In this document: positions 3,346 through 59,515 of the stretch, one piece after another | How positions within the stretch are numbered: the stretch's first letter is position 1 | Layout of the letters: each line of letters starts with the position of its first letter | Assembly (NCBI GenBank): GCA_001788095.1 | Contig: MFZX01000029.1 | Span: 4,620 to 68,619 of the forward strand | DNA: 64,000 nt | Direction of reading: 5' to 3' | Origin: Candidatus Roizmanbacteria bacterium RIFCSPHIGHO2_12_FULL_37_23 | Lineage (GTDB): Bacteria > Patescibacteriota > Microgenomatia > UBA1406 > HO2-37-13b | Notes under the pieces: model-generated | What the model was told of the DNA's origin: nothing | Database searches by the model: none | What the model saw: the letters and a program-made list of their open reading frames with translations, nothing else | Translations under genes and position numbers: made by a program

Positions 3346-4019
3346 TTATATTTGATCCTCGAAATAGGGTATATATATCGTCAAAATTACGAGACACGGG
3401 ATATACTTCAAGTTTTGGGACACGGTTAAGTAGAAATCCTCAAAATCATAGAATTGTCATGAAGCAGGTACATGGTGATAAAATCGTGAAAATTACAGCA
3501 CAGAATATAGATCGAGAAAAGTTTCAGAACACAGATGGAATGATAACTCGATTGAACGGTGTAACACTAATAGTCAAAACTGCAGACTGCGTTCCAATAA
3601 TTTTTGCTGATACCTTATCGAGTATCTTGGGTGTTTCGCATCAAGGATGGAGAGGAACACTACTGAATTTACCTCTGAAGATGGTTAATTTTTTGGCTAA
3701 AGAAGGGGTTCAGAAAGAGAATATTATTGTTGCAATTGGCCCGTCAATAAGCGCCTGCTGTTACAAAATATATGGAGATAGATTAGATCTATTTAGAAAG
3801 ACATTTCCTCGTTATGTAGACAGAATTTTTATAAAGAACAACAATGATATATTTCTAAACTTGGGATACCTTGCATATCTGCAACTCGTGGATGCAGGCA
3901 TACAAAAAAATAATATTGACTACTTTCCATTTTGTACAAGTTGTCACAAAGATCACTTTTATTCGTATAATAGAGATAAGTCTACAAAGCGGATGGAGAG
4001 TTGGATTGCTAAGTATTAG
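3342..4019 (+). CDS. pgeF: YfiH/PgeF family (DUF152, peptidoglycan editing factor / laccase-domain) protein
   Basis: Family motifs: QVHGDKIV, KTADCVPIIF, SHQGWRG and CCY in the C-terminal half. 4-nt overlap with the upstream gene. Confidence 0.8.
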   Translation: MIIFDPRNRVYISSKLRDTGYTSSFGTRLSRNPQNHRIVMKQVHGDKIVKITAQNIDREKFQNTDGMITRLNGVTLIVKTADCVPIIFADTLSSILGVSHQGWRGTLLNLPLKMVNFLAKEGVQKENIIVAIGPSISACCYKIYGDRLDLFRKTFPRYVDRIFIKNNNDIFLNLGYLAYLQLVDAGIQKNNIDYFPFCTSCHKDHFYSYNRDKSTKRMESWIAKY

Positions 4020-4047
4020 GTATTAAGTATTAAGTATTATGTATTAA
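4013..4047 (+). repeat. Heptamer tandem repeat array (GTATTAN)x5
   Basis: GTATTAG GTATTAA GTATTAA GTATTAT GTATTAA. The first unit contains the pgeF stop codon. The array ends 3 nt before the murC ATG. Confidence 0.9.
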
Positions 4048-4050
4048 TCT

Positions 4051-5463
4051 ATGCAAAATATTTATCTTGTCGGCATAAAAGGTGTTGGGATGACAGCTCT
4101 TGCTACATACTTAAAAGAGTGTGGAAATAATGTATGGGGCTCGGACATTCAAGATAAATTTCCTACAGATGAAGTTTTGCACGAGCAGCATATTAAAGTT
4201 CTCAAAGGGTTTTCGCCAAAAAATATTACTAATAATATTGACTTAGTTGTTACTACAGGAGCTCACGGAGGTCTTACAAATATAGAAGTCTTAACAGCAC
4301 AAGAGAAAGGTGTAAAAGTCATGACACTAGCAGAAGAAGTTGGACAACTGATGGATGGGTATGAAACAAAAATTACCATATGTGGTTCTCATGGAAAAAC
4401 AACAACAACGTCACTTATTTCTTTCATATTGAGGCAACTTAGATTGTCATCGAGCCACCTTGTCGGAACATCTAAATTTTCTGGTTATTATGGGGGATCT
4501 TTTGGAGGATCTGATTATTTGGTTGTTGAAGGAGACGAGTATGTTTCATCTCTAGGAACTGATAGTACTCCCCGCTTCATGTACCAGAGTCCTGATTATA
4601 TTATTTGTACGAATATCGATTTTGATCACCCTGATGTATATAAAGATATCAATGCAGTAAAAAAGGTTTTTGTTGATTTTTTTAAAAAGTTAAAAAAGAA
4701 TCCTAAGGGGAGATTGATTTACTGCATAGATGATGTCGCATTGCGTAGGCTTGCAGAAGTTCTTCCTGAGGAAAAACGGATGTCATACGGTTTTTCTGAA
4801 GATGCCGACCTCGTATTGCACTTCATGCATACAGAGGAATTTCAAAGAGCAGTTTTTAGTGCGCGATTACATGGTGAACATCTTGGTGTTTTTAAATTAC
4901 CATTCTTGGGTCATCACAATGTTCAAAACGCAGGTTCTGCCATTGCGCTATCTATCTTACTATCGCTTGATCTCACAAAAGTGAAGTCTGCAATCGCTTT
5001 GTTTAAAGGACTATCGCGACGACTAGAGTTAATCTATAAAAAGAACAATATATATCTCTTCGACGATTATGCACATCATCCAAGAGAGATTAGAGCATTG
5101 CTTGAAGCTGTTCGAGAAAAGTTTCCGAGATCTCGAAGGATTTTAGTTTTCCAGCCCCATACATACACTCGAACAAAGATGCTTCTCAATGATTTTGTAC
5201 ATGCGCTAGGAGATGCTGATAAATCATATGTTATTGATATTTTTGCATCTGCTCGAGAAAAGACTGATGGGAAAATTACATCAAAAGATTTAGAAGTAAA
5301 AGCAAACCAGATGCATATTAAAACCATCTCGTATGTATCGGATAAAAAAATAATGAGCGAACTCGCAAAAGAGCTTAAAAGAGGTGATGTTGTTATTACA
5401 GCAGGCGCAGGTGATGTGTATAAATTACATGAAGGAATAATAAGCGTCATGAATAAGTCATAA
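4051..5463 (+). CDS. murC: UDP-N-acetylmuramate--L-alanine ligase
   Basis: N-terminal GIKGVGMTALA Rossmann motif typical of MurC. P-loop GSHGKTTTT. DDYAHHPREI. Confidence 0.9.
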   Translation: MQNIYLVGIKGVGMTALATYLKECGNNVWGSDIQDKFPTDEVLHEQHIKVLKGFSPKNITNNIDLVVTTGAHGGLTNIEVLTAQEKGVKVMTLAEEVGQLMDGYETKITICGSHGKTTTTSLISFILRQLRLSSSHLVGTSKFSGYYGGSFGGSDYLVVEGDEYVSSLGTDSTPRFMYQSPDYIICTNIDFDHPDVYKDINAVKKVFVDFFKKLKKNPKGRLIYCIDDVALRRLAEVLPEEKRMSYGFSEDADLVLHFMHTEEFQRAVFSARLHGEHLGVFKLPFLGHHNVQNAGSAIALSILLSLDLTKVKSAIALFKGLSRRLELIYKKNNIYLFDDYAHHPREIRALLEAVREKFPRSRRILVFQPHTYTRTKMLLNDFVHALGDADKSYVIDIFASAREKTDGKITSKDLEVKANQMHIKTISYVSDKKIMSELAKELKRGDVVITAGAGDVYKLHEGIISVMNKS

Positions 5464-27244: not shown

Positions 27245-27299
27245 GATTATTCCATTGTAAGTAAGCTAAAAGGAAAAAACAAGCGATGATGAACTTGTT

Positions 27300-27308
27300 T
27301 GATATAAT
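27300..27308 (+). promoter_or_regulatory. Candidate extended -10 promoter element (TGaTATAAT)
   Basis: TGATATAAT at 27300-27308, about 95 nt upstream of tRNA-Val. No good -35 element. Confidence 0.35.
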
Positions 27309-27352: not shown

Positions 27353-27402
27353 ATCCTGAATTGAAGTTTCTCCGATGTAATCGGAGTTCAGGATGTTTTT
27401 TT
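27353..27402 (+). terminator. 42-nt nested palindromic element (copy A) followed by T7 run; terminator-like
   Basis: ATCCTGAA-N9-CTCCGAT GTA ATCGGAG-TTCAGGAT, then G and TTTTTTT (27396-27402), directly abutting the tRNA-Val 5' end. 35/42 identical to 31210-31251. Confidence 0.45.
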
Positions 27403-27476
27403 GGCCGATTAGCTCAGTTGGTCAGAGCGTTCCGTTCACATCGGAGAGGTCGAAGGTTCGAGTCCTTCATCGGCCA
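27403..27476 (+). tRNA. tRNA-Val (anticodon CAC)
   Basis: Manual cloverleaf: acceptor GGCCGAT/ATCGGCC, D arm GCTC/GAGC, anticodon loop TTCACAT, T arm GAAGG-TTCGAGT-CCTTC. CCA is not encoded. Confidence 0.9.
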
Positions 27477-27488
27477 CAAGACATTTTT

Positions 27489-30916: not shown

Positions 30917-30939
30917 ACTCGTTATTGTATACTATCATT

Positions 30940-31731
30940 ATGCTCTCTGCTGTTATTATTGCAAAAAATGAGGAAAAGAATATTCAAAATGCGATTGAAT
31001 CCGTATCATTTTGTGACGAGGTTGTTGTTGTCGACAACGAATCAATAGATAAAACATCCGAAATTGCAATAAAAGCTGGCGCTAAGGTTTATAGAGATGG
31101 TGAAGCAGATTTTTCAAAGATCAGAAATTTTGCTATGGGAAAGACAAAAGGCGATTGGATACTGTTTATAGATGCGGACGAGAGAATACCTAAACGATTA
31201 AGTTATGAGGTCCTGAAACAAGCTTCCTCCGATGTAATCGGAGTTCAGGATGACAGTATGCAAGCCGACCGAACTGAAGTTTTTCGCATCAAGCGTCGCG
31301 ATTTTTTTTGGGGAACTGAATTAAGATTTGGTGAGACTCAACAAGTACGAAAGAAGGGAATGATCAGACTCATCAAAAAAAACAGCGGAACATGGAAGGG
31401 GAAAGTCCATGAAGAGTTCCATACGGATAAACCAGTTGGTCAGTTACAGTCATTTATAGATCATTATCCTCATCCTACAGTTGCAGAATTTCTTCAAAGC
31501 GTTAATCAATACAGTACATTGAGAGCTCAAGAGCTTTTCGAGAAAAACTACAACTCATCATTTGTTCAAATAATGTTATACCCAATTGGAAAATTTATTT
31601 ATACCTATATTATACTTCTGGGAATTTTAGATGGAGCTGCTGGTTTTGTATATTCATTTATGATGAGCTTCCATTCATTTCTTGTGAGGAGTAAATTGTA
31701 TTTACTTGCTATTAGTCCTTCTCGTAAATAA
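30940..31731 (+). CDS. Glycosyltransferase family 2
   Basis: LSAVIIAKNEEKNI, VVVDNES, FIDADE (DxD). The start is taken at ATG 30940 rather than the listed TTG 30925. It contains the in-frame palindromic element at 31210-31251. Confidence 0.8.
   Translation: MLSAVIIAKNEEKNIQNAIESVSFCDEVVVVDNESIDKTSEIAIKAGAKVYRDGEADFSKIRNFAMGKTKGDWILFIDADERIPKRLSYEVLKQASSDVIGVQDDSMQADRTEVFRIKRRDFFWGTELRFGETQQVRKKGMIRLIKKNSGTWKGKVHEEFHTDKPVGQLQSFIDHYPHPTVAEFLQSVNQYSTLRAQELFEKNYNSSFVQIMLYPIGKFIYTYIILLGILDGAAGFVYSFMMSFHSFLVRSKLYLLAISPSRK
31210..31251 (+). repeat. 42-nt nested palindromic element (copy B), inserted in frame in the GT2 gene
   Basis: GTCCTGAA-N9-CTCCGAT GTA ATCGGAG-TTCAGGAT. Exactly 14 codons (VLKQASSDVIGVQD). 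A 26-nt exact match (CTCCGATGTAATCGGAGTTCAGGATG) to 27370-27395. Confidence 0.85.
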
Positions 31732-44651: not shown

Positions 44652-46005
44652 TCAAAAGGAATTTATACCGGTAATAGGTTTGGAAATTCATGTTCAGCTG
44701 GCAACAAAAACAAAACTTTTTGATAGGGGCTCAGCTGATTGGTTCGGAAAAAAACCCAATACTGTTGTTGGTCCTCTTGCATTAGGTTTACCAGGAACGC
44801 TTCCTGTACCAAACAAAAAAGCAATCCAATGGGCGATGCTCCTTGGAAAATCGCTTAATTGCAAAATAAATAAGATTTCGAAATTTGACAGAAAGCACTA
44901 TTTTTATCCAGATTTACCAAAAGCCTACCAAATTAGCCAATATGATCAACCTTTTTCCTATGACGGCTATTTTGAATTCATTTCCCCCGTAACTGGTACT
45001 AAAAAGAACATTACTATTACGCGAGTACACCTTGAAGAAGATACTGGTAAACTTATTCACCAAGGGAATGAAACACTCATAGATTTTAACCGTTCAGGAG
45101 TTCCTCTTGCTGAGATTGTGACAGAACCTGATTTTGACAACTCAGATGATGTAAAAAGATTTCTTGAGGAACTGCAGGTACATGTTCGTTATTTGGGAAT
45201 TTCAGACGCGGATATGGAAAAAGGGTCAATGAGACTCGAACCGAATATTTCAGTCAGGCATAGGAAGTCAGAGCAGAAACTACCTAACTATAAGGTGGAA
45301 ATAAAGAACATTAATTCATTTCGATACGCTAAGCAGGCGATTGAGTTTGAAATTAAACGGCAGGAGCACTTGATTCGATCGGGTGAAACTCCCGTTCAGG
45401 AAACACGAGGGTATGATGAATTCAAAGGTGTTACATTTTCACAGCGTCGTAAAGAGGGAGCCGAAGACTATAGATATTTTCCAGAACCTGATATTCCACC
45501 TTTTATTTTCGATGACGACTTTCTCAAGGTTATTGATGATATGATGCCGGAGTTACCACATGAACGGCTTGCAAGGTTTATAGCTCAGGGAATAAAACCG
45601 GGGGATGCATATGTTTTAACACGATCAAAGTCGATTTCGGATACCTATGAACTTATTATAAAGGAAATAAAATCTAGTGTTGAGAAACTTACACATAAAA
45701 GTAAAACACTTGAAGGAGAAATTGCTAAACTCATTGTTAATAAAAAAGTATCTATAGAGAAGGATACGAGAAGTGTCATTAAGGAAATTATTCAACAACT
45801 TACGCCGCAAGAAACGAATGAAGAAGAATTAATACAGGTCATCGAATCAGTTATAGAAACAAACCAAAAACCAGTGCAAGATTTTAAGAATGGAAAGGAA
45901 AATTCTATAACATTTCTCATTGGACAAGTAATGAAAACAATGAAAGGGAAAGCCGATCCAGTTGGAGTAAGAAAATCATTAGAAAAAAAACTCACCGATA
46001 CCTAA
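44644..46005 (+). CDS. gatB: Asp/Glu-tRNA(Asn/Gln) amidotransferase subunit B
   Basis: VIGLEIHVQL, HYFYPDLPKAYQISQ, RVHLEEDTGK, NRSGVPLAEIVTEPD. Confidence 0.9.
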   Translation: MNNQKEFIPVIGLEIHVQLATKTKLFDRGSADWFGKKPNTVVGPLALGLPGTLPVPNKKAIQWAMLLGKSLNCKINKISKFDRKHYFYPDLPKAYQISQYDQPFSYDGYFEFISPVTGTKKNITITRVHLEEDTGKLIHQGNETLIDFNRSGVPLAEIVTEPDFDNSDDVKRFLEELQVHVRYLGISDADMEKGSMRLEPNISVRHRKSEQKLPNYKVEIKNINSFRYAKQAIEFEIKRQEHLIRSGETPVQETRGYDEFKGVTFSQRRKEGAEDYRYFPEPDIPPFIFDDDFLKVIDDMMPELPHERLARFIAQGIKPGDAYVLTRSKSISDTYELIIKEIKSSVEKLTHKSKTLEGEIAKLIVNKKVSIEKDTRSVIKEIIQQLTPQETNEEELIQVIESVIETNQKPVQDFKNGKENSITFLIGQVMKTMKGKADPVGVRKSLEKKLTDT

Positions 46006-46015
46006 TACCTAATAC
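45995..46015 (-). repeat. Heptamer tandem repeat (GTATTAG-type, reverse orientation), 2 exact + 1 degenerate unit
   Basis: The plus strand reads CCGATAC CTAATAC CTAATAC. The gatB stop codon TAA lies inside the first exact unit. Confidence 0.7.
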
Positions 46016-52847: not shown

Positions 52848-53705
52848 ATGAATTTTAGACAAGTCAGAAAAAAAGCGAAAACAGTTCAAAATGTAAAAAA
52901 AATAACAAATGCTATGCAAATGGTTTCTGCAGTAAAAATGAGAAAATCACAGAGGGAAGCTCTAGAGGGTAGAGAATATCGTGCGATGCTAGATGAGGTA
53001 ATTTCTGAGGTGTTAAGTAGCAAATCTATGTTAAAGGAAAGTAAAATACCATGGATCGAAACAACTGTAGGAAGTAGAAGTCTTTGTATCCTCATCTCAT
53101 CAAACAAAGGTTTATGCGGATCATTCCATTCGTACCTTTTCAAAGAAGTACTTGATAAGCAAGATTTAACAACAGCTGATTTTATCGTGATAGGTAAGAA
53201 AGCTGCAGAGTTTATAACACGAACTAGGACCAAAATTATAGCTGATTTTTCAAGCCAAATTCCTTTTATTGATAATGTTTCAGCTGTTTTCTCAGTTATA
53301 GAAGAGAGATATGTTAGTGGCCAATATAGTAAGGTGTTTGTTATTTATAACAAATTTATAACCTCCTTTAAAAATGAACCAACAATTGAAAAACTATTAC
53401 CTATCACAGAAATAAAACAGCTTGATAAAGAAAATAAGGAAATAAGAACGGCAGAAGCTGATTATTTGCTTGAACCATCAGGAAGCGATTTGCTCAAACC
53501 ACTTATTGATGATTATTTAAAAGAAAAGATACGTGGAGCCATTCGTGACAGTGAAGCCGCAGAACATTCTGCACGCATGATGGCAATGAAAAGTGCTACA
53601 GACAATGCCACAGAACTTATTTTTAACCTGACATTACTAGGAAATAAACTTAGACAAACACAAATTACAAACGAATTACTTGATATGGTTGCAGCTACCT
53701 CGTAG
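52848..53705 (+). CDS. atpG: F0F1 ATP synthase subunit gamma
   Basis: ITNAMQMVSAVKMRK N-terminus and ITNELLDMV C-terminus. Confidence 0.9.
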   Translation: MNFRQVRKKAKTVQNVKKITNAMQMVSAVKMRKSQREALEGREYRAMLDEVISEVLSSKSMLKESKIPWIETTVGSRSLCILISSNKGLCGSFHSYLFKEVLDKQDLTTADFIVIGKKAAEFITRTRTKIIADFSSQIPFIDNVSAVFSVIEERYVSGQYSKVFVIYNKFITSFKNEPTIEKLLPITEIKQLDKENKEIRTAEADYLLEPSGSDLLKPLIDDYLKEKIRGAIRDSEAAEHSARMMAMKSATDNATELIFNLTLLGNKLRQTQITNELLDMVAATS

Positions 53706-53754
53706 GTATTAGGAATTACGTATTACGTATAACGTATTAAGTATTACGTATTAT
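53706..53754 (+). repeat. Heptamer tandem repeat array (GTATTAN)x7
   Basis: GTATTAG GAATTAC GTATTAC GTATAAC GTATTAA GTATTAC GTATTAT. It starts immediately after the atpG stop and ends 14 nt before the atpD ATG. Confidence 0.9.
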
Positions 53755-53756
53755 GA

Positions 53757-55145
<1,389 letters not shown>

Positions 55146-55924: not shown

Positions 55925-55951
55925 TCTTAAGTTTTGATTTGCGGGATATTG
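55925..55951 (+). other. 5' strand of 27-bp 23S processing stem
   Basis: TCTTAAGTTTTGATTTGCGGGATATTG pairs with 59320-59346 (CAATATCCCGCAAATTGAAACTTAAGA): 25 Watson-Crick pairs plus 2 G.U pairs. Confidence 0.8.
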
Positions 55952-56096
55952 TAATTAAAGCTAGTGGTGAATGCCTAGGTAATTTGAGCCGAGGAAGGAC
56001 GTGTGTATGGACACGATATCGTCGATAAGTCTCCTAACAGACATTACAATCGGCGGTTTCCCAATGGGATAACCCCACTGATAGTAATATCAGTGA

Positions 56097-56115
56097 CCCC
56101 CGATTTTATCGGGGG
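56097..56115 (+). repeat. rRNA hairpin repeat copy 1 (CCCCCGAT TTT ATCGGGGG)
   Basis: Seen directly. 8-bp stem, TTT loop variant. Confidence 0.9.
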
Positions 56116-56171
56116 AGGATACCTGGTGAACTGAAACATCTCAGTAACCGGAGGAAAAGAAATCAAAATGT

Positions 56172-56197
56172 CTCAATTAGACGCAAGTTTAGTTGAG
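56172..56197 (+). repeat. 26-nt hairpin with GNRA loop (CTCAATTAGAC GCAA GTTTAGTTGAG), apparent insertion in 23S domain I
   Basis: 11-bp stem (2 G.U pairs). It lies between GAAATCAA and CGAGATTCC, which are contiguous in the E. coli 23S as I recall it (GAAAUCAACCGAGAUUCC). Confidence 0.6.
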
Positions 56198-56200
56198 CGA

Positions 56201-56231
<31 letters not shown>

Positions 56232-56241
56232 GGAGCCTAAA

Positions 56242-56258
56242 CCCCGATTTAATCGGGG
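56242..56258 (+). repeat. rRNA hairpin repeat copy 2 (CCCCGAT TTA ATCGGGG)
   Basis: Exact 17-mer. Confidence 0.9.
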
Positions 56259-56542
56259 GGTTGCGGGAGTCTGCATACCTACACTTTTTTTCTAGATGAA
56301 TGTCATGGAAAGGACAACCAAAGAAAGTGATAGTCTTGTAGTTAAAAGAAGAAAAGTGTAAGCGGAATTTCCCAAGTACCACGGGACACGGAAAACCTTG
56401 TGGGAAGCTAGGGCGGTCATGCTCTAAGGCTAAATACTCAAATTAACCGATAGTGAACCAGTACCGTGAGGGAATGGTGAAAAGTCCCCCGGCGAGGGGA
56501 GTGAAATAGAACCTGAAACCGCTAGCTAACAAGCAGTGAGAG

Positions 56543-56559
56543 CCCCGATTTAATCGGGG
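56543..56559 (+). repeat. rRNA hairpin repeat copy 3 (CCCCGAT TTA ATCGGGG)
   Basis: Exact 17-mer. Confidence 0.9.
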
Positions 56560-56651
56560 TAATCGCGTGCCTATTGAAGAATGAGCCAGCGAGTTTTCAA
56601 GAGCTGCTTAAGGTTAACCAATAAAAAGTTGGGTAGCCATAGCGAAAGCAA

Positions 56652-56669
56652 TCCCACCGAAAGGCGGGA
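56652..56669 (+). repeat. Second hairpin family copy 1 (TCCCACC GAAA GGCGGGA)
   Basis: 20/21 identical to 56738-56758, including the AA prefix. One A/C mismatch in the stem. Confidence 0.8.
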
Positions 56670-56739
56670 ACGTCTGAATAGGGCGTTGGTAGCTTTTGAA
56701 AGACCCGAAACTGGGTGATCTAACCATGGGCAGGGTGAA

Positions 56740-56757
56740 TCCCGCCGAAAGGCGGGA
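56740..56757 (+). repeat. Second hairpin family copy 2 (TCCCGCC GAAA GGCGGGA)
   Basis: Perfect 7-bp stem with a GAAA tetraloop. Confidence 0.8.
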
Positions 56758-57147
56758 GGAAGCCCGAACCCGTTATCGGTGAAATGATATGGGATGACCT
56801 GTGGTTAGGGGTAATATGCTAATCGAACCCAGAGATAGCTGGTTCTCCCCGAGATATATTTAGGTATAGCCTTCCTGCTCATAAAACACCTGGGGTAAAG
56901 CACTGAATAGTCCAGAGAGTCTAGTACAATTTGGATTAATCAAACTCTGAATACAGTCGTGTTTTGGCGGGAGGAGTCAGACTCACTAGGATAAGCTAGC
57001 GTGGTCGAAAGGGAAACAGCCCAGACTCCCATCTAAGGTCTCTAAATGGTTATTAAGTGGGAAAGGTAGTGAGATTTCAAAGACAGCCGGGAGGTTGGCT
57101 TAGAAGCAGCCATCCTTTAAAGAAAGCGTAACAGCTCACCGTAATAG

Positions 57148-57164
57148 CCCCGATTTAATCGGGG
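57148..57164 (+). repeat. rRNA hairpin repeat copy 4 (CCCCGAT TTA ATCGGGG)
   Basis: Exact 17-mer. Net insertion relative to the recalled E. coli segment CACUGGUCGAGUCGGCCUGCGCGGAAG. Confidence 0.9.
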
Positions 57165-57573
57165 ATGAGGTCTTGCGCCGAAAATGATCGAGGCTTAAAT
57201 AATCTACCGAAGATGGAGATGCTTGTGCTTTGCACAAGTGTGGTAGGGGAGCGTCCCGTGTACGATGAAGATCTACCGTAAGGTGGGTTGGAGTTAACGG
57301 GAGTGAGAATGCTGGCATAAGTAGCGATTCTCCCGCTGAAAATGCGGGATGCCGTATGTCCAAGGTTTCCTCAGCAACGTACATCGGCTGAGGGTTAGTC
57401 GGATCTAAGGGCTCTGCCGATAGGCGAGTCTCGATGTCCAAGCTGTTAATATTCAGCTACTCTTTATAAAGCGTTACTACTTTTATACTAACGAAATCTG
57501 ATAATCGAAGCCTTCTATATGAGGGTCTAAATGGTAAGCACCACCAATTGGTGGGACCGAGCCATGAATGCGA

Positions 57574-57590
57574 CCCCGATTTTATTGGGG
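57574..57590 (+). repeat. rRNA hairpin repeat copy 5 (CCCCGAT TTT ATTGGGG)
   Basis: Variant with a TTT loop and one G.U pair. Confidence 0.85.
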
Positions 57591-57753
57591 GAGCTCGATG
57601 CGTTAAGTTTCCGGGAAAAGGTATAAAAGGAGTTTTATAAGGATCCGTACCGCAAACCAACACAGGTGGACTGGTAGAGTATACTAAGGCAATCGAGTAA
57701 TGGTGGTTCAAGGAACTCGGCAAATCAGCTGGACGTAACTTTGGAGATGTCCT

Positions 57754-57770
57754 TCCCGCCTTTGGCGGGA
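57754..57770 (+). repeat. Second hairpin family copy 3 (TCCCGCC TTT GGCGGGA)
   Basis: Same 7-bp stem as 56740-56757 with a different loop. Confidence 0.7.
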
Positions 57771-57980
57771 CACAGCAAATGATTTCCATCTAACTGTTTA
57801 CCAAAAACACAGCTCCCTGCAAACCGGAAACGGGAAGTATAGGGGGTGAGGCCTGTCCAGTGCCGGTAAGTTAAGGATCGGGGTTAATCCCGATATCACG
57901 AAAGTAATATCGGGAAAGGCTCTGATTCAAGCTCCGGTGAACGACAGCTCTAACTCTGAGAGTTCTAAGGTAGCGTAGTC

Positions 57981-58018
<38 letters not shown>

Positions 58019-58225
58019 TAAGATGGAAACTGTCTTGAACCATTGCTCGGCGAAATTGAAATGGCTGTGAAGATGCGGCCTTCCTGCACCAGGACAAGAA
58101 GACCCCGGGAGCTTTACTGAAGCTTATTATTGACAAGAAATTATTAACTGTCTAGCGTAGGAGGGAGTTTTGGCAGCAATGCCGGACACCAATGAAACAC
58201 CTCTCTTTGATAATTTTGAGTCTTA

Positions 58226-58242
58226 CCCCGATTTAATCGGGG
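58226..58242 (+). repeat. rRNA hairpin repeat copy 6 (CCCCGAT TTA ATCGGGG)
   Basis: Exact 17-mer. Confidence 0.9.
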
Positions 58243-58446
58243 GACAGTAGTAGGTGGTCAGTTTAACTGGGGCGGTTTCCTCCAAAAGGGTAACGGAGGA
58301 GCGCAAAGGTTGGCTTTTTCCGGATGGAAATCGGAATGTACGTGTAAACGCATAAGCCAGCTTAACTGTGAGGAATACAATCCGAGCAGATCCGAAAGGA
58401 GGCGTTAGTGATCCCCCGATCGGTTATGATTACCGGTGGGGCTTAT

Positions 58447-58477
<31 letters not shown>

Positions 58478-58625
58478 GGTCTCCCCTAAGAGTTCACATC
58501 GACGGGGAGGTTCGGCACCTTATGAGCCAAATAATTGGGGTGCCTTCAGTAGCAATACTGATAAAAAAATGTGACTTATAACGGTGGACTCCATAAATGC
58601 CCGATGATAGAATATCATCGTTATT

Positions 58626-58797
58626 ATGGACAATACCGTGGGAAGTCTAACTCGAGCTCAAAAATCTGTTATCATAGGGTCTATTCTTGGAGATGGCTAA
58701 TTTTAGAATTCGTTTTCTAAAATCTAGCTTACCAAGATTACATGATCTTATTGGTAAAAATCTTATACCTTCAATGAAGTATAAACTTGAGTTATGA
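58626..58797 (+). pseudogene. Decayed LAGLIDADG homing endonuclease ORF
   Basis: ATG at 58626 gives MDNTVGSLTRAQKSVIIGSILGDG then a stop. A +1 shift continues NFRIRFLKSSLPRLHDLIGKNLIPSMKYKLEL then a stop. Only the first LAGLIDADG motif region survives. Confidence 0.55.
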
Positions 58798-58811
58798 CCC
58801 CGTAGAGACTT

Positions 58812-58828
58812 CTCCGATTTAATCGGGG
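58812..58828 (+). repeat. rRNA hairpin repeat copy 7 (CTCCGAT TTA ATCGGGG), inside the intron
   Basis: Variant with CTCC on the 5' strand (one G.U pair). It lies just downstream of the endonuclease remnant. Confidence 0.85.
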
Positions 58829-58985
58829 AGAGTTCAATAAAAAATTGAGCTAATACGTCACCCCCAGATTTCAGATATCTGGGTGAAGATATAGTCCGCG
58901 CCATTAGTAATAATGGATTATCATGCGATGTCGGCTCATCGCATCCTGGGGCCGTAGCAGGTCCCAAGGGTTGGTCTGTTCGCCC

Positions 58986-59033
<48 letters not shown>

Positions 59034-59216
59034 ACTCTATCCGGTGCAGGCGTTTGGATTCTTGAAAAGGCTCTTCTCTAGTACGAGAGGACCGAGAAGA
59101 GGGAATCCCTGGTGTATCAGTTGTCCTATAAGGGCATTGCTGAGTAGCTATATTCCTATGAGATAAGTACTGAAAGCATCTCAAGTACGAAGCTTACTTT
59201 AAGATGAGGAATCCAC

Positions 59217-59233
59217 CCCCGATTTAATCGGGG
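59217..59233 (+). repeat. rRNA hairpin repeat copy 8 (CCCCGAT TTA ATCGGGG)
   Basis: Exact 17-mer near the 23S 3' end. Confidence 0.9.
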
Positions 59234-59319
59234 ATAAATCCCCCGGTAGATGACCGGGTTGATAGGCGCATGGTGTAAGTCCAGTAATGGATTTAGCCTA
59301 TGCGTACTAATGGATGATT

Positions 59320-59346
59320 CAATATCCCGCAAATTGAAACTTAAGA
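59320..59346 (+). other. 3' strand of 27-bp 23S processing stem
   Basis: Complementary to 55925-55951. Confidence 0.8.
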
Positions 59347-59353
59347 ATAGCAT

Positions 59354-59374
59354 GTATTACGTATTATGTATTAA
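59354..59374 (+). repeat. Heptamer tandem repeat array (GTATTAN)x3
   Basis: GTATTAC GTATTAT GTATTAA, immediately after the 23S processing stem. Confidence 0.85.
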
Positions 59375-59466
59375 GGATCTAATTCTTTTGACCCCCTGTA
59401 TTTGATCTATTGCAATTTGTTTTATCTTTTATTACTATCAAGAGACATGGGCAAGTTTCCTATGGC

Positions 59467-59515
59467 ATTATACGTAATACCTAAAACGAAATACCTAATA
59501 CCTAATACCTAATAT
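59467..59515 (-). repeat. Heptamer tandem repeat array, reverse orientation, x7
   Basis: The plus strand reads ATTATAC GTAATAC CTAAAAC GAAATAC CTAATAC CTAATAC CTAATAT. The last unit overlaps the topA ATG (59514). Confidence 0.9.

What the first reader, a model, noticed from the sequence alone, without database searches (positions are those of the whole stretch)
31210..31284. 42-nt nested palindrome inserted exactly in frame (14 codons) in a GT2 glycosyltransferase gene
Seen directly. 31210-31251 reads GTCCTGAA-N9-CTCCGAT GTA ATCGGAG-TTCAGGAT. It is 35/42 identical to the intergenic element at 27353-27394, including a 26-nt exact match, and has the same outer and inner stems. It spans exactly 14 codons (VLKQASSDVIGVQD) in a loop-like region after the DxD motif of the GT2 enzyme. 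The inner hairpin (CTCCGAT-GTA-ATCGGAG) shares the core CCGAT-NTA-ATCGG with the 23S hairpin family. A further 12-mer, GAACTGAAGTTT (31271-31282), matches GAATTGAAGTTT (27358-27369) inside copy A at 11/12, so the inserted segment may extend to 75 nt (25 codons). In-frame palindromic insertions in ORFs are the hallmark of RPE-like selfish elements.
Basis: partly seen in the sequence, partly recalled or inferred. Interest (0 to 1): 0.7.

Follow-up and report, generated by a model that had tools for sequence, protein, structure and literature searches.

The report
Nested hairpin repeat inside enzyme gene
A glycosyltransferase gene of a tiny groundwater bacterium (Roizmanbacteria) carries, in frame in a floppy surface loop, a copy of a widespread short DNA hairpin repeat that has a second small hairpin inserted into its loop; this is a new variant of the known "selfish palindromes inside genes", not a new kind of biology.

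Summary
Window 31210-31251 is a nested palindrome, 35/42 identical to 27353-27394. The two share a 26-nt exact block, and the palindrome spans 14 codons of a GT2 gene.

The reading "one 42-nt element inserted as 14 codons" is only partly right.
- **Outer arms.** With their flanks (31207-31256) they belong to a dispersed short-palindrome family that I call SP: AGA-TCCTGAA-ACAAG-TTCAGGA-TGACA. A covariance model built only from other genomes finds this site (28.9 bits, E about 1e-4).
- **Bare SP in relatives.** It sits at exactly the same codons in orthologues from other Roizmanbacteria and in one paralogous GT2.
- **What is specific to this genome.** A 21-nt insertion (7 codons, ASSDVIG) lies in the SP loop. 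It carries the 17-nt hairpin CTCCGAT-GTA-ATCGGAG.
- **Protein context.** The first six of the 14 codons encode part of a conserved helix. Only residues about 97-104 form a low-confidence loop.
- **The 75-nt extension** is refuted.

This loop is a hairpin hotspot: 14 of 61 orthologues carry one. SP is widespread (69 instances in viral contigs), and its stems covary.

The inner hairpin shares its core with eight hairpins in the 23S rRNA. Only two composite copies exist in 79 kb. The mobilising mechanism is inferred, not shown.

The parts
30940..31731 (+). GT2 glycosyltransferase gene (263 aa as called in public records; the longest ORF starts at 30925)
   Evidence: Pfam PF00535, E 1.1e-17. The product is identical to P0001/OGK15297.1 of Candidatus Roizmanbacteria. 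The closest solved relative is the GmaR GT2 domain, E 3.6e-25.
31207..31256 (+). Composite palindrome: an SP-family element (flank GAG, arms, loop, tail TGACAG) with a 21-nt insertion in its loop
   Evidence: Covariance model R1 was built from 14 SP copies of other genomes. It matches here over all 29 model positions at 28.9 bits, with E 1.6e-4 in 1.27 Mb and 1.2e-5 in 96 kb. Twenty-two nt stand in place of one loop position.
31210..31217 (+). Outer 5' arm GTCCTGAA (codons V91-L92-K93; the first pair is G-T)
   Evidence: It lies in predicted helix 85-96 and aligns with the EIL(K) helix residues of orthologues.
31218..31222 (+). SP loop ACAAG, identical to the family consensus loop
   Evidence: Alignment A2; comparison with L013 and L009.
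31223..31243 (+). Lineage-specific 21-nt insertion CTTC + CTCCGAT-GTA-ATCGGAG; the inner 17-nt hairpin is 31227-31243. In codon terms it is ASSDVIG, residues 95-101.
   Evidence: It is absent from the bare SP at the same codons in L013 and L009/L014. pLDDT is below 50 at residues 101-103 and averages 57 over residues 101-110.
31244..31255 (+). Outer 3' arm TTCAGGAT plus the family tail GACA (codons V102-Q103-D104-D105)
27353..27394 (+). Copy A: same arms and inner hairpin but a different 9-nt bulge (TTGAAGTTT). It lies in the tRNA-Val leader.
   Evidence: It matches the SP model only weakly (12.8 bits, model positions 4-25).
27370..27395 (+). 26-nt block identical to 31227-31252
   Evidence: 2 matches, none in 100 shuffles.
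27396..27402 (+). Run of seven T directly after copy A. Hairpin plus T-run is terminator-like and sits 0-8 nt before tRNA-Val.
   Evidence: Sequence; the function was not tested.
27403..27477 (+). tRNA-Val(CAC). Its acceptor stem GGCCGAT/ATCGGCC shares CCGAT/ATCGG with the hairpin.
   Evidence: sequence.
56098..59233 (+). Eight related 17-nt hairpins (CCCCGAT-TTA-ATCGGGG and variants) in the 23S rRNA gene, at 56098, 56242, 56543, 57148, 57574, 58226, 58812 and 59217
   Evidence: They cap peripheral helices when aligned to E. coli 23S. The 58812 copy (CTCCGAT-TTA-ATCGGGG) is 15/17 identical to the inner hairpin and lies in a sub-threshold group I intron.

Best explanation
The feature is a two-layer, non-coding-in-origin palindromic repeat that a permissive surface loop of the GT2 enzyme tolerates.

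**Layer 1: the SP repeat.** The arms, the ACAAG loop and the flanks nAG / TGACA are a copy of a dispersed, REP-like short palindrome family (SP). Its members have an invariant loop and flanks and covarying stems. They occur singly or as inverted doublets, in intergenic DNA and in ORFs, and in many genomes. In ORFs only the stop-free frames survive. In this orientation that frame reads (E/Q/K)-ILKQVQDD.

**Why this site.** The helix end nine residues after DxDE normally reads E-I-L. At the DNA level this is close to the element's AGATCCTG end, and it is followed by a length-variable loop. I infer that target preference plus purifying selection explains why SP and other hairpin repeats recur at this exact spot.

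**Layer 2: the inner hairpin.** A 21-nt segment carrying the 17-nt hairpin CTCCGAT-GTA-ATCGGAG was later placed between the SP loop and its 3' arm. It adds seven residues (ASSDVIG) to a disordered loop. The same segment sits at the same relative position in a second SP-like palindrome 3.9 kb away, in the tRNA-Val leader.

**Shown.** Family membership, the nesting, the in-frame position, the loop location and the hotspot.

**Inferred.**
- The repeats spread as single-stranded DNA hairpins, through a hairpin-recognising enzyme or hairpin-templated repair.
- They have no function for the enzyme.
For: - **B is an SP member with a loop insertion.** The covariance model built without the window hits 31207-31256 at 28.9 bits.
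- **Bare SP at identical codons.** It is found in L013 and L009/L014. SP with 27-nt loop insertions at the same junction is found in L088 and L055. A decayed SP sits at the homologous loop of a paralogous GT2 in L035.
- **SP elsewhere.** It occurs in other genes and in intergenic DNA of the same genomes, for example three copies in 17 kb of L009.
- **SP is widespread and structured.** An unbiased search found 69 distinct instances in IMG/VR. The two free stem positions pair in 68 of 69 instances, across six stem types.
- **Inverted doublets.** Seen in L031, L044 (twice), L061 and L055.
- **Hotspot.** In 61 orthologues, perfect inverted repeats of at least 7 bp occur at 4.2 per kb in the loop DNA against 1.1 per kb in the rest of the gene (binomial p 4.5e-6). 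Fourteen orthologues carry one, of several hairpin types, most ending in ATGACA.
- **Patchy distribution.** SP-bearing orthologues are scattered in the tree, and the nearest relatives L011 and L072 lack SP.
- **Tolerance by the protein.** AlphaFold gives mean pLDDT 92, with the only stretch below 50 at residues 101-103. The loop is 36 aa against a mode of 24-27 aa.
- **Non-random inner hairpin.** Its 12-base core otherwise occurs only in the 23S rRNA within 79 kb.
Against: - No transposase or other partner was linked to SP. The two Y1_Tnp homologues found in related loci are flanked by different hairpins, and no gene recurs next to SP in viral contigs.
- No presence/absence polymorphism was found. 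All strain-level contigs are identical.
- No target-site duplication is evident.
- Only two composite copies occur in 79 kb, and B is the only clear SP member there. The family therefore looks inactive in this genome.
- SP-bearing orthologues (26-27 aa) are not longer than SP-less ones. SP therefore did not simply add 7-8 codons there.
- Exact nucleotide conservation at one codon position, across orthologues about 55% identical and in a paralogue, could also mean a function at the nucleotide level.
- The rest of the source genome could not be searched.
Confidence: 0.6

Rival explanations
1. The hairpin is a functional cis-element of the GT2 gene or mRNA, kept by selection at the nucleotide level rather than a neutral passenger. 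It could be a translational pause site ahead of the C-terminal membrane helices, an mRNA-stability or RNase site, or a binding site for a protein that also recognises the 23S hairpins.
For: - The same palindrome sits at exactly the same codon in orthologues about 55% identical in protein, and in a paralogous GT2.
- The stems covary, so the structure is maintained.
- Copies A and B differ at 6 of 9 unpaired bulge positions and at none of the 33 positions of the 5' arm (excluding its first base), inner hairpin and 3' arm.
- The inner hairpin shares its core with eight rRNA hairpins.
Against: - The closest syntenic orthologue (L011/P0002) and most of the 61 orthologues lack it.
- The same repeat occurs in unrelated genes, in intergenic DNA and in viral contigs.
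- In other orthologues the loop holds unrelated hairpin types, in either orientation. This fits tolerance better than a specific function.
Confidence: 0.15
2. The similarity between A and B is a purely local event. A short ectopic gene-conversion or repair patch, or a local duplication, copied about 26 nt (inner hairpin plus 3' arm) between two pre-existing palindromes 3.9 kb apart. On this view there is no independently mobile 17/21-nt module.
For: - Only two copies occur in 79 kb, 3,857 bp apart and in the same orientation.
- Identity is perfect over 26 nt and then stops abruptly at the bulge.
- Two independent assemblies contain contigs that join the left flank of B to the right flank of A through the block. 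This shows the block is long enough to mislead assembly, or to recombine.
Against: - The hairpin core recurs eight times in the 23S rRNA, with compensatory differences.
- Loop insertions at the same junction of SP elements occur independently in L088, L055 and L085.
- The four bases before the hairpin differ between the copies (CTTC vs GTTT).

This rival concerns only how A and B came to share the block. It is compatible with the main explanation for the outer palindrome.
Confidence: 0.2
3. Chance resemblance or assembly artefact.
For: None beyond the chimeric contigs L006 and L007.
Against: - The 26-mer has 0.00 expected matches in shuffles.
- The locus is identical in contigs of 85-108 kb from several samples and assemblers.
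Confidence: 0.01

Closest known systems
REP elements and REPIN doublets (mobilised by RAYT Y1 transposases), including REPs located inside ORFs (Di Nocera et al. 2013, PMC3733652; Bertels & Rainey 2011, PMC3116915)
   Same: - Short (about 20-40 nt) palindromes with a conserved tag at the ends and variable, pairing stems.
- They occur singly and as inverted doublets.
- They are mostly intergenic, but some lie wholly inside ORFs and add a few residues.
   Different: - The end tags are AGAT / ATGAC(A), not GTAG or CGTC.
- The pentaloop ACAAG is itself conserved.
- Copy number in this genome is very low.
- No RAYT flanked by these hairpins was found. The Y1_Tnp genes seen in related loci carry other hairpins.
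- The host is a CPR bacterium, and copies also occur in many viral contigs.
Rickettsia palindromic elements (RPE)
   Same: Palindromic repeats inserted in frame into protein-coding genes at positions the fold tolerates (PMC3733652 describes intragenic RPEs as CGTC-tagged repeats).
   Different: RPEs are roughly 100-150 bp (from my own knowledge) and CGTC-tagged. Here the unit is 21-29 nt, or 50 nt with the nested insert. There is no sequence similarity.
Insertions targeted to the loops of palindromic repeats (IS1397/ISKpn1 into REP/BIME loops; from my own knowledge)
   Same: A second element sits inside the loop of a pre-existing palindromic repeat and preserves the outer stem.
   Different: Those are full insertion sequences of about 1.4 kb that encode a transposase. 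Here the insert is 21-27 nt and encodes nothing.
GC clusters of yeast mitochondrial DNA (from my own knowledge)
   Same: Short G+C-rich palindromic hairpins in an A+T-rich genome. They are found in rRNA variable regions and in frame inside an ORF (var1).
   Different: Different organism, sequence and size; no evidence of relatedness.
Intrinsic (rho-independent) terminator, for copy A only
   Same: A stable hairpin immediately followed by seven T (27353-27402).
   Different: It lies 0-8 nt in front of a tRNA gene that has no room for its own promoter after it, so efficient termination there would silence the tRNA. Copy B has no T-run.

Membership tests
SP short-palindrome family (defined here, alignment A2 / model R1) | 8-bp stem A-T-N-C-N-G-A-A / T-T-C-N-G-N-A-T with the N positions complementary | tested here: met
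   Copy B has 7 Watson-Crick pairs plus G-T, and copy A has 8 of 8. In the family the free positions pair in 68 of 69 instances.
SP short-palindrome family (defined here, alignment A2 / model R1) | Conserved pentaloop ACAAG (variants ACGAG, ATAAA) and flanks nAGA... / ...TGAC(A) | tested here: met
   Copy B has loop ACAAG, 5' flank GAG(G) and 3' tail TGACAG. Copy A does not meet this: loop region TTGAA..., flanks GGGA / TGTT. It scores 12.8 bits, E 6.4.
SP short-palindrome family (defined here, alignment A2 / model R1) | Significant score to a model built without the candidate | tested here: met
   28.9 bits, E 1.6e-4 in a 1.27-Mb search.
REP / REPIN-RAYT system | Conserved GTAG (or CGTC) tetranucleotide at one end | tested here: not met
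   The ends are AGAT and ATGAC. The tags are as defined in PMC3733652.
REP / REPIN-RAYT system | Many copies per genome | tested here: inconclusive
   There is one clear SP and two composite copies in 79 kb of the source contig, and up to three per 17 kb in L009. The whole genomes could not be scanned.
REP / REPIN-RAYT system | Inverted doublets (REPINs) | tested here: met
   Head-to-head pairs in L031, L044 (twice), L061 and L055. There are none in the window.
REP / REPIN-RAYT system | A cognate RAYT (Y1 transposase) gene flanked by the same repeats | tested here: not met
   Y1_Tnp homologues in L025 and L076 are flanked by GTTAAC-type hairpins, not SP. This is a limited sample of loci.
Rickettsia palindromic elements | In-frame insertion in ORFs at structurally permissive sites | tested here: met
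Rickettsia palindromic elements | Element length about 100-150 bp and a CGTC end | tested here: not met
   The element is 29 nt, or 50 nt with the nested insert, and has no CGTC end.
MITE | Terminal inverted repeats plus a target-site duplication, derived from an IS | tested here: inconclusive
   The arms could be read as terminal inverted repeats, but no duplication flanks A or B. A 5-nt duplication, CTTCG, flanks a nested hairpin in L085. No parent IS was identified.
GT2 glycosyltransferase (host gene) | GT-A domain with a DxD motif | tested here: met
   PF00535 at 64.9 bits; D78-A-D80-E invariant; GmaR at E 3.6e-25.

The most novel reading that the evidence does not exclude
The 17-nt hairpin (CCGAT-NTA-ATCGG core) is a module that is propagated specifically into the loops of pre-existing hairpins. 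This could happen by a loop-targeting insertion or repair mechanism, or because a dedicated protein recognises the hairpin. That would explain why it caps seven peripheral helices of the 23S rRNA, sits in a group I intron stem, and occupies the loops of two SP palindromes, one in a tRNA leader and one inside an mRNA. The mRNA and leader copies would then be either by-products of that mechanism or regulatory mimics of the rRNA sites.
Probability: 0.12. Interest if true: 0.8.

Novelty: new variant of a known kind. Interest (0 to 1): 0.5.

Why it matters
- **For annotation.** Odd peptides such as ILKQVQDD or ASSDVIG in proteins of CPR bacteria and phages are translated hairpin repeats, not protein motifs.
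- **A new family to study.** SP is a widespread hairpin family (AGAT-stem-ACAAG-stem-ATGAC) with covarying stems. It is absent from Rfam 15, and I found it in no paper in the searchable library. It can now be searched genome-wide for its mobilising enzyme.
- **A natural experiment.** One loop of a conserved enzyme has been hit repeatedly, and at one exact codon, by several hairpin repeat types in different lineages. This allows study of the target choice of such elements and of how much insertion a protein tolerates.
- **A link to the 23S rRNA.** The shared core ties this locus to the unusual identical hairpin caps of this organism's 23S rRNA. That may be the more important lead.

Tried and rejected
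1. **Scan of GTDB species genomes** for the 21-mer CCGATGTAATCGGAGTTCAGG: 0 hits. The source genome is not in that collection, and no other species has the block.
2. **Scan of JGI metagenome contigs** for the 20-mer: three hits, all in unrelated contigs of 49-55% G+C with different flanks, so chance hits. The collection did not even return the source contig.
3. **Two contig look-ups failed** because my start codons differed from the called genes. Later look-ups extended the contig to 79 kb and found no further copy.
4. **Strain variants.** The 263-aa variant P0122 carries the insert and differs by one residue elsewhere. The 109-aa member P0121 comes from the junction contigs described in full report section 6, not from a deletion allele.
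5. **Orthologous tRNA-Val leader.** The syntenic relative L011/L012 has no tRNA-Val next to the M20 peptidase, so A has no orthologous site to compare.
6. **Permuted longer element.** I tested whether the region upstream of A and the region downstream of B are related. They are not: local alignment score 11, at the null median.
7. **75-nt version.** Rejected, because it would delete conserved strand residues. The 12-mer match remains an unexplained oddity.
8. **Rfam.** At permissive thresholds, nothing matched on the two copies or on SP-rich loci.
9. **Literature.** Searching by sequence and by translated peptide gave 0 papers. No paper on palindromic repeats in CPR bacteria turned up.
10. **Partner gene.** Clustering of ORFs within 3 kb of SP in 68 viral loci found no family in more than 5 loci. 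A RayT-based search found Y1_Tnp genes flanked by other hairpins.
11. **Homing-endonuclease remnant.** My guess of a LAGLIDADG remnant in the 23S insertion was not confirmed by translation.
Full report
**1. Observation**

- Window 31210-31251 is GTCCTGAA / ACAAGCTTC / CTCCGAT-GTA-ATCGGAG / TTCAGGAT.
- Window 27353-27394 is ATCCTGAA / TTGAAGTTT / CTCCGAT-GTA-ATCGGAG / TTCAGGAT.

The two are 35/42 identical. They share the exact 26-mer CTCCGATGTAATCGGAGTTCAGGATG. No shuffle of the window produced even one match within three mismatches (family D8).

Both fold into an 8-bp outer stem, a 9-nt bulge on the 5' side and a 7-bp inner stem with a triloop. The energies are -18.7 and -18.1 kcal/mol, with z-scores of about -3.

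Copy B starts on a codon boundary of a GT2 gene and spans 14 codons, VLKQASSDVIGVQD.

The organism is a Candidatus Roizmanbacteria (CPR) population from the Rifle aquifer. The same protein is found in four NCBI MAGs and on contigs of up to 108 kb.

**2. What the protein says**

I aligned the protein with 26 homologues of 50-57% identity. The residues after the DADE motif form a helix that every homologue has. V91-L92-K93-Q94-A95, the product of the 5' arm and bulge, align with that helix without gaps.

AlphaFold2 gives a confident model with mean pLDDT 92.3.
- Helix 85-96 includes those residues.
- The only stretch with pLDDT below 50 is residues 101-103.
- The block of residues 101-110 averages 57.

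The distance from DxDE to the RRD motif is 36 residues here. The mode is 24-27 in 110 homologues, with a tail up to 51.

So there is extra material of about 9-12 residues in a naturally length-variable loop. The 42 nt are not a clean 14-codon insert. The proposed 75-nt, 25-codon version would remove V114-F115, which align with the conserved strand AYYI, so it is rejected.

**3. The key result: the outer palindrome is older and belongs to a family**

*DNA of orthologues.* In orthologue P0006 (L009/L014, another Rifle Roizmanbacteria) the same codons read GAG ATC CTG AAA CTA GTT CAG GAT GAC. That is ATCCTGAA-ACTAG-TTCAGGAT-GAC: the outer stem without the inner hairpin.

I fetched 80 orthologous loci from GTDB genomes and found the following.
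- L013 has ATCCTGAA-ACAAG-TTCAGGAT-GAC at the same codons.
- L088 and L055 have the same arms with 27-nt interiors.

*The palindrome elsewhere.* It also occurs away from this gene. L009 has three copies in 17 kb: one inside a polysaccharide-synthase-like ORF, one intergenic and one in GT2. Stem variants TGCTGAA, TCCCGAA and TTCCGAA occur in L031, L044, L055 and L061.

*Defining the family.* I aligned fourteen members from six genomes. They share invariant flanks (nAGA...TGAC) that were not part of the search pattern. Their stem covariation is biased, because I had required perfect pairing when collecting them.

A covariance model built from these 14, with the window excluded, gave these results in a 1.27-Mb search.
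- It recovered them all.
- It found imperfect members.
- It hit window 31207-31256 over the full model at 28.9 bits (E 1.6e-4), with 22 nt in place of one loop position.
- L088 and L055 scored alike (29.2 and 29.9 bits), each with 28 nt there.

Copy B is therefore the family palindrome GAG-GTCCTGAA-ACAAG-[21 nt]-TTCAGGA-TGACAG. The 21 nt are CTTC + CTCCGATGTAATCGGAG, equal to the seven codons ASSDVIG.

Copy A has the arms but neither the loop nor the flanks. It scores only 12.8 bits (E 6.4).

**4. How broad the family is**

I searched IMG/VR with AGATNCNGAAACAAGTTCNGNATGAC, a pattern that leaves the two variable stem positions and their partners free. It returned 68 stretches holding 69 distinct instances, in contigs of 28-57% G+C.
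- The free positions form standard pairs in 68 of 69 instances.
- Six stem combinations occur: C-G/T-A 21, G-C/T-A 19, T-A/T-A 11, C-G/C-G 6, G-C/C-G 5 and T-A/C-G 5.

This is unbiased evidence that the hairpin, and not just its sequence, is maintained.

About two thirds of the instances are intergenic or lie only in short open frames. The rest lie in open frames of at least 120 codons. There they read EILKQVQDD on one strand, and VILNLFQDL or CHPELVSGS on the other. Those are the frames without stop codons.

In the CPR loci the elements often form head-to-head doublets, as REPINs do.

No Rfam family matches them. No paper in the searchable library contains the sequence or its translations.

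**5. The GT2 loop is a hotspot**

In 61 orthologues, perfect inverted repeats of at least 7 bp occur at 4.2 per kb in the DNA of this loop. The rest of the gene has 1.1 per kb (binomial p 4.5e-6; the loci are related, so this is indicative only).

Fourteen orthologues carry one. The types differ, and most end in ATGACA.

| Hairpin type | Loci |
|---|---|
| SP (ATCCTGAA / TTCAGGAT) | window, L009/L014, L013, L055, L088 |
| ATTCCCGC-N4-GCGGGAAT | L015, L051 |
| TCCCGAC-N3-GTCGGGA | L049, L057 |
| ATCCCGCC-N3-GGCGGGAT | L081 |
| TCCCCTCCTT-N3-AAGGAGGGGA | L048 |
| 13-bp stem | L085 |

SP starts exactly nine residues after DxDE, after an E or Q codon (nAG|AT), in the window, L009, L013 and L088. 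It does the same in a paralogous GT2 of L035, DSDE...KKEILKLVQDDK.

In a neighbour-joining tree the SP-bearing genes fall in at least three places. Their nearest relatives lack SP, including the syntenic L011/P0002 at 62% identity.

SP-less orthologues normally read E-I-L at this point. At the DNA level that resembles the element's AGATCCTG end. I infer that a target preference, plus selection for the one open frame and the one tolerant loop, explains the recurrence. Nucleotide-level function is the alternative (rival 1).

One fact is against simple insertion: SP-bearing loops of L009 and L013 (26-27 aa) are no longer than SP-less loops.

**6. The inner hairpin and copy A**

*Relation to the 23S hairpins.* The 17-nt hairpin differs from the 23S hairpins CCCCGAT-TTA-ATCGGGG at three positions. 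Two of these form a compensatory pair, C-G to T-A. It differs at only two positions from the copy at 58812.

Outside the rRNA, the core occurs only in A and B within 79 kb of contig. About 0.005-0.01 chance matches are expected.

The 23S copies cap peripheral helices or add a small helix when aligned to E. coli 23S. The 58812 copy lies in a 405-nt insertion at E. coli position about 2500. That insertion matches the group I intron model below its threshold (28.8 bits, E 1.9e-5).

*Context of copy A.* It lies in the leader of tRNA-Val.
- By eye, an extended -10 box (TGATATAAT, about 27299-27307) lies roughly 45 nt upstream of it.
- It is followed by seven T and then by the tRNA.
- It looks like a terminator, but efficient termination there would silence the tRNA. 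I regard it as a passenger or a weak attenuator. This was not tested.

*How A and B compare.* They differ at 6 of the 9 bulge positions and at the first base of the 5' arm. They differ at none of the other 32 positions. B's bulge begins with the family loop ACAAG, while A's begins with TTGAA.

The simplest reading is that two different palindromes received the same segment at the same junction. This could be by insertion or by a short conversion patch (rival 2). With two copies I cannot choose between these.

*Junction contigs.* Two independent assemblies contain short contigs that join B's left flank to A's right flank through the 26-mer. This may be assembler confusion at low coverage or real recombination.

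**7. Mechanism**

My best-supported account has confidence of about 0.6. A REP-like hairpin repeat occupies a permissive loop, and a second small hairpin is nested in its loop. Both are tolerated because they add a short disordered segment far from the DxD site.

Spread through single-stranded hairpin DNA, recognised by an HUH/Y1-type enzyme, is inferred by analogy with REP/RAYT and IS200/IS605. The search for direct support gave the following.
- Y1_Tnp homologues do exist in related Microgenomates loci (PF01797, E 8e-8 and 3e-11).
- They are flanked by different hairpins.
- No gene recurs next to SP in viral contigs.

**8. Comparison with known systems**

REPs inside ORFs and in-frame RPEs are documented (PMC3733652). 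The kind is therefore known.

What is new here:
- the family itself, with AGAT/ATGAC tags and a conserved ACAAG loop, in CPR bacteria and phage contigs;
- the hairpin-in-hairpin nesting, also seen in L088, L055 and L085;
- the same-codon recurrence in orthologues and a paralogue;
- the shared core with the rRNA hairpin caps.

**9. Limits**

- No close relative without the insert exists in the databases.
- The tree is a rough neighbour-joining tree.
- No function was tested.

Noticed in passing
window 55944-59329 (hairpins at 56098, 56242, 56543, 57148, 57574, 58226, 58812, 59217): The 23S rRNA gene carries eight copies of an almost identical 17-nt hairpin, CCCCGAT-TTA-ATCGGGG. When aligned to E. 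coli 23S they cap peripheral helices (about 150-175, 275, 545, an insertion at 1114, 1530, 2205 and 2795). Identical caps on many helices of one rRNA are unusual and share their core with the finding.
   Followed up: partly
window 58521-58925: A 405-nt insertion in the 23S rRNA at E. coli position about 2500. It matches the group I intron model RF00028 over its full length but below threshold (28.8 bits, E 1.9e-5). It contains hairpin copy 58812.
   Followed up: partly
IMG/VR loci L097-L164; CPR loci L009, L013, L031, L044, L055, L061: The hairpin family AGAT-NCNGAA-ACAAG-TTCNGN-ATGAC is widespread, with 69 instances in viral contigs of 28-57% G+C. Its stems covary strongly, and it often forms inverted doublets. 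It matches no Rfam family and appears in no paper in the searchable library.
   Followed up: partly
L006 1468-1602 and L007 576-664: Contigs from two independent assemblies join the left flank of copy B (GT2 gene) to the right flank of copy A (tRNA-Val) through the 26-nt block. This gives a truncated 109-aa 'protein' (P0121). It is either assembly confusion or real recombination, duplication or excision of the 3.86-kb segment.
   Followed up: partly
window 27403-27477: The tRNA-Val acceptor stem GGCCGAT/ATCGGCC shares the five inner pairs CCGAT/ATCGG with the hairpin family. ATCGGAG also forms the 3' side of its anticodon stem. This is possibly coincidence.
   Followed up: no
window 31271-31282 vs 27358-27369: The 12-mer GAACTGAAGTTT matches GAATTGAAGTTT at 11/12. 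A match this good to copy A occurs in only about 0.5% of random 120-nt segments. Yet it encodes conserved strand residues, and the surrounding flanks are unrelated. Unexplained.
   Followed up: yes
L085 12136-12185: Another AGAT...ATGACA hairpin repeat (stem ATTCCTCGA) has an inner hairpin, GGACGT-CAA-ACGTCC, nested in its loop. The inner hairpin is flanked by a duplicated CTTCG, which looks like a target-site duplication.
   Followed up: no
L025 239-907 and L076 15456-16130: IS200-like Y1 transposase homologues (PF01797) in related Microgenomates genomes. Each is flanked on both sides by GTTAAC...GTTAAC hairpins, a RAYT-like arrangement with a different repeat.
   Followed up: partly
window 4010-4060, 53703-53758, 59354-59378; complements at 45983-46014 and 59483-59514: Short arrays of the heptamer GTATTA[AC] (or TACCTAA on the other strand) lie in several intergenic regions, including both sides of the 23S rRNA gene (families D4, D5 and D12).
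   Followed up: no
L095 16439-18130 (about 2-3.6 kb beyond the right end of the window): A large serine recombinase (Resolvase + Recombinase + Zn_ribbon_recom), followed by small ORFs without known families. This is possibly an integrated element.
   Followed up: no
window 1-64000: No 16S or 5S rRNA gene was detected next to the 23S gene; only tRNA-Ala lies upstream. The rRNA genes appear to be unlinked.
   Followed up: no
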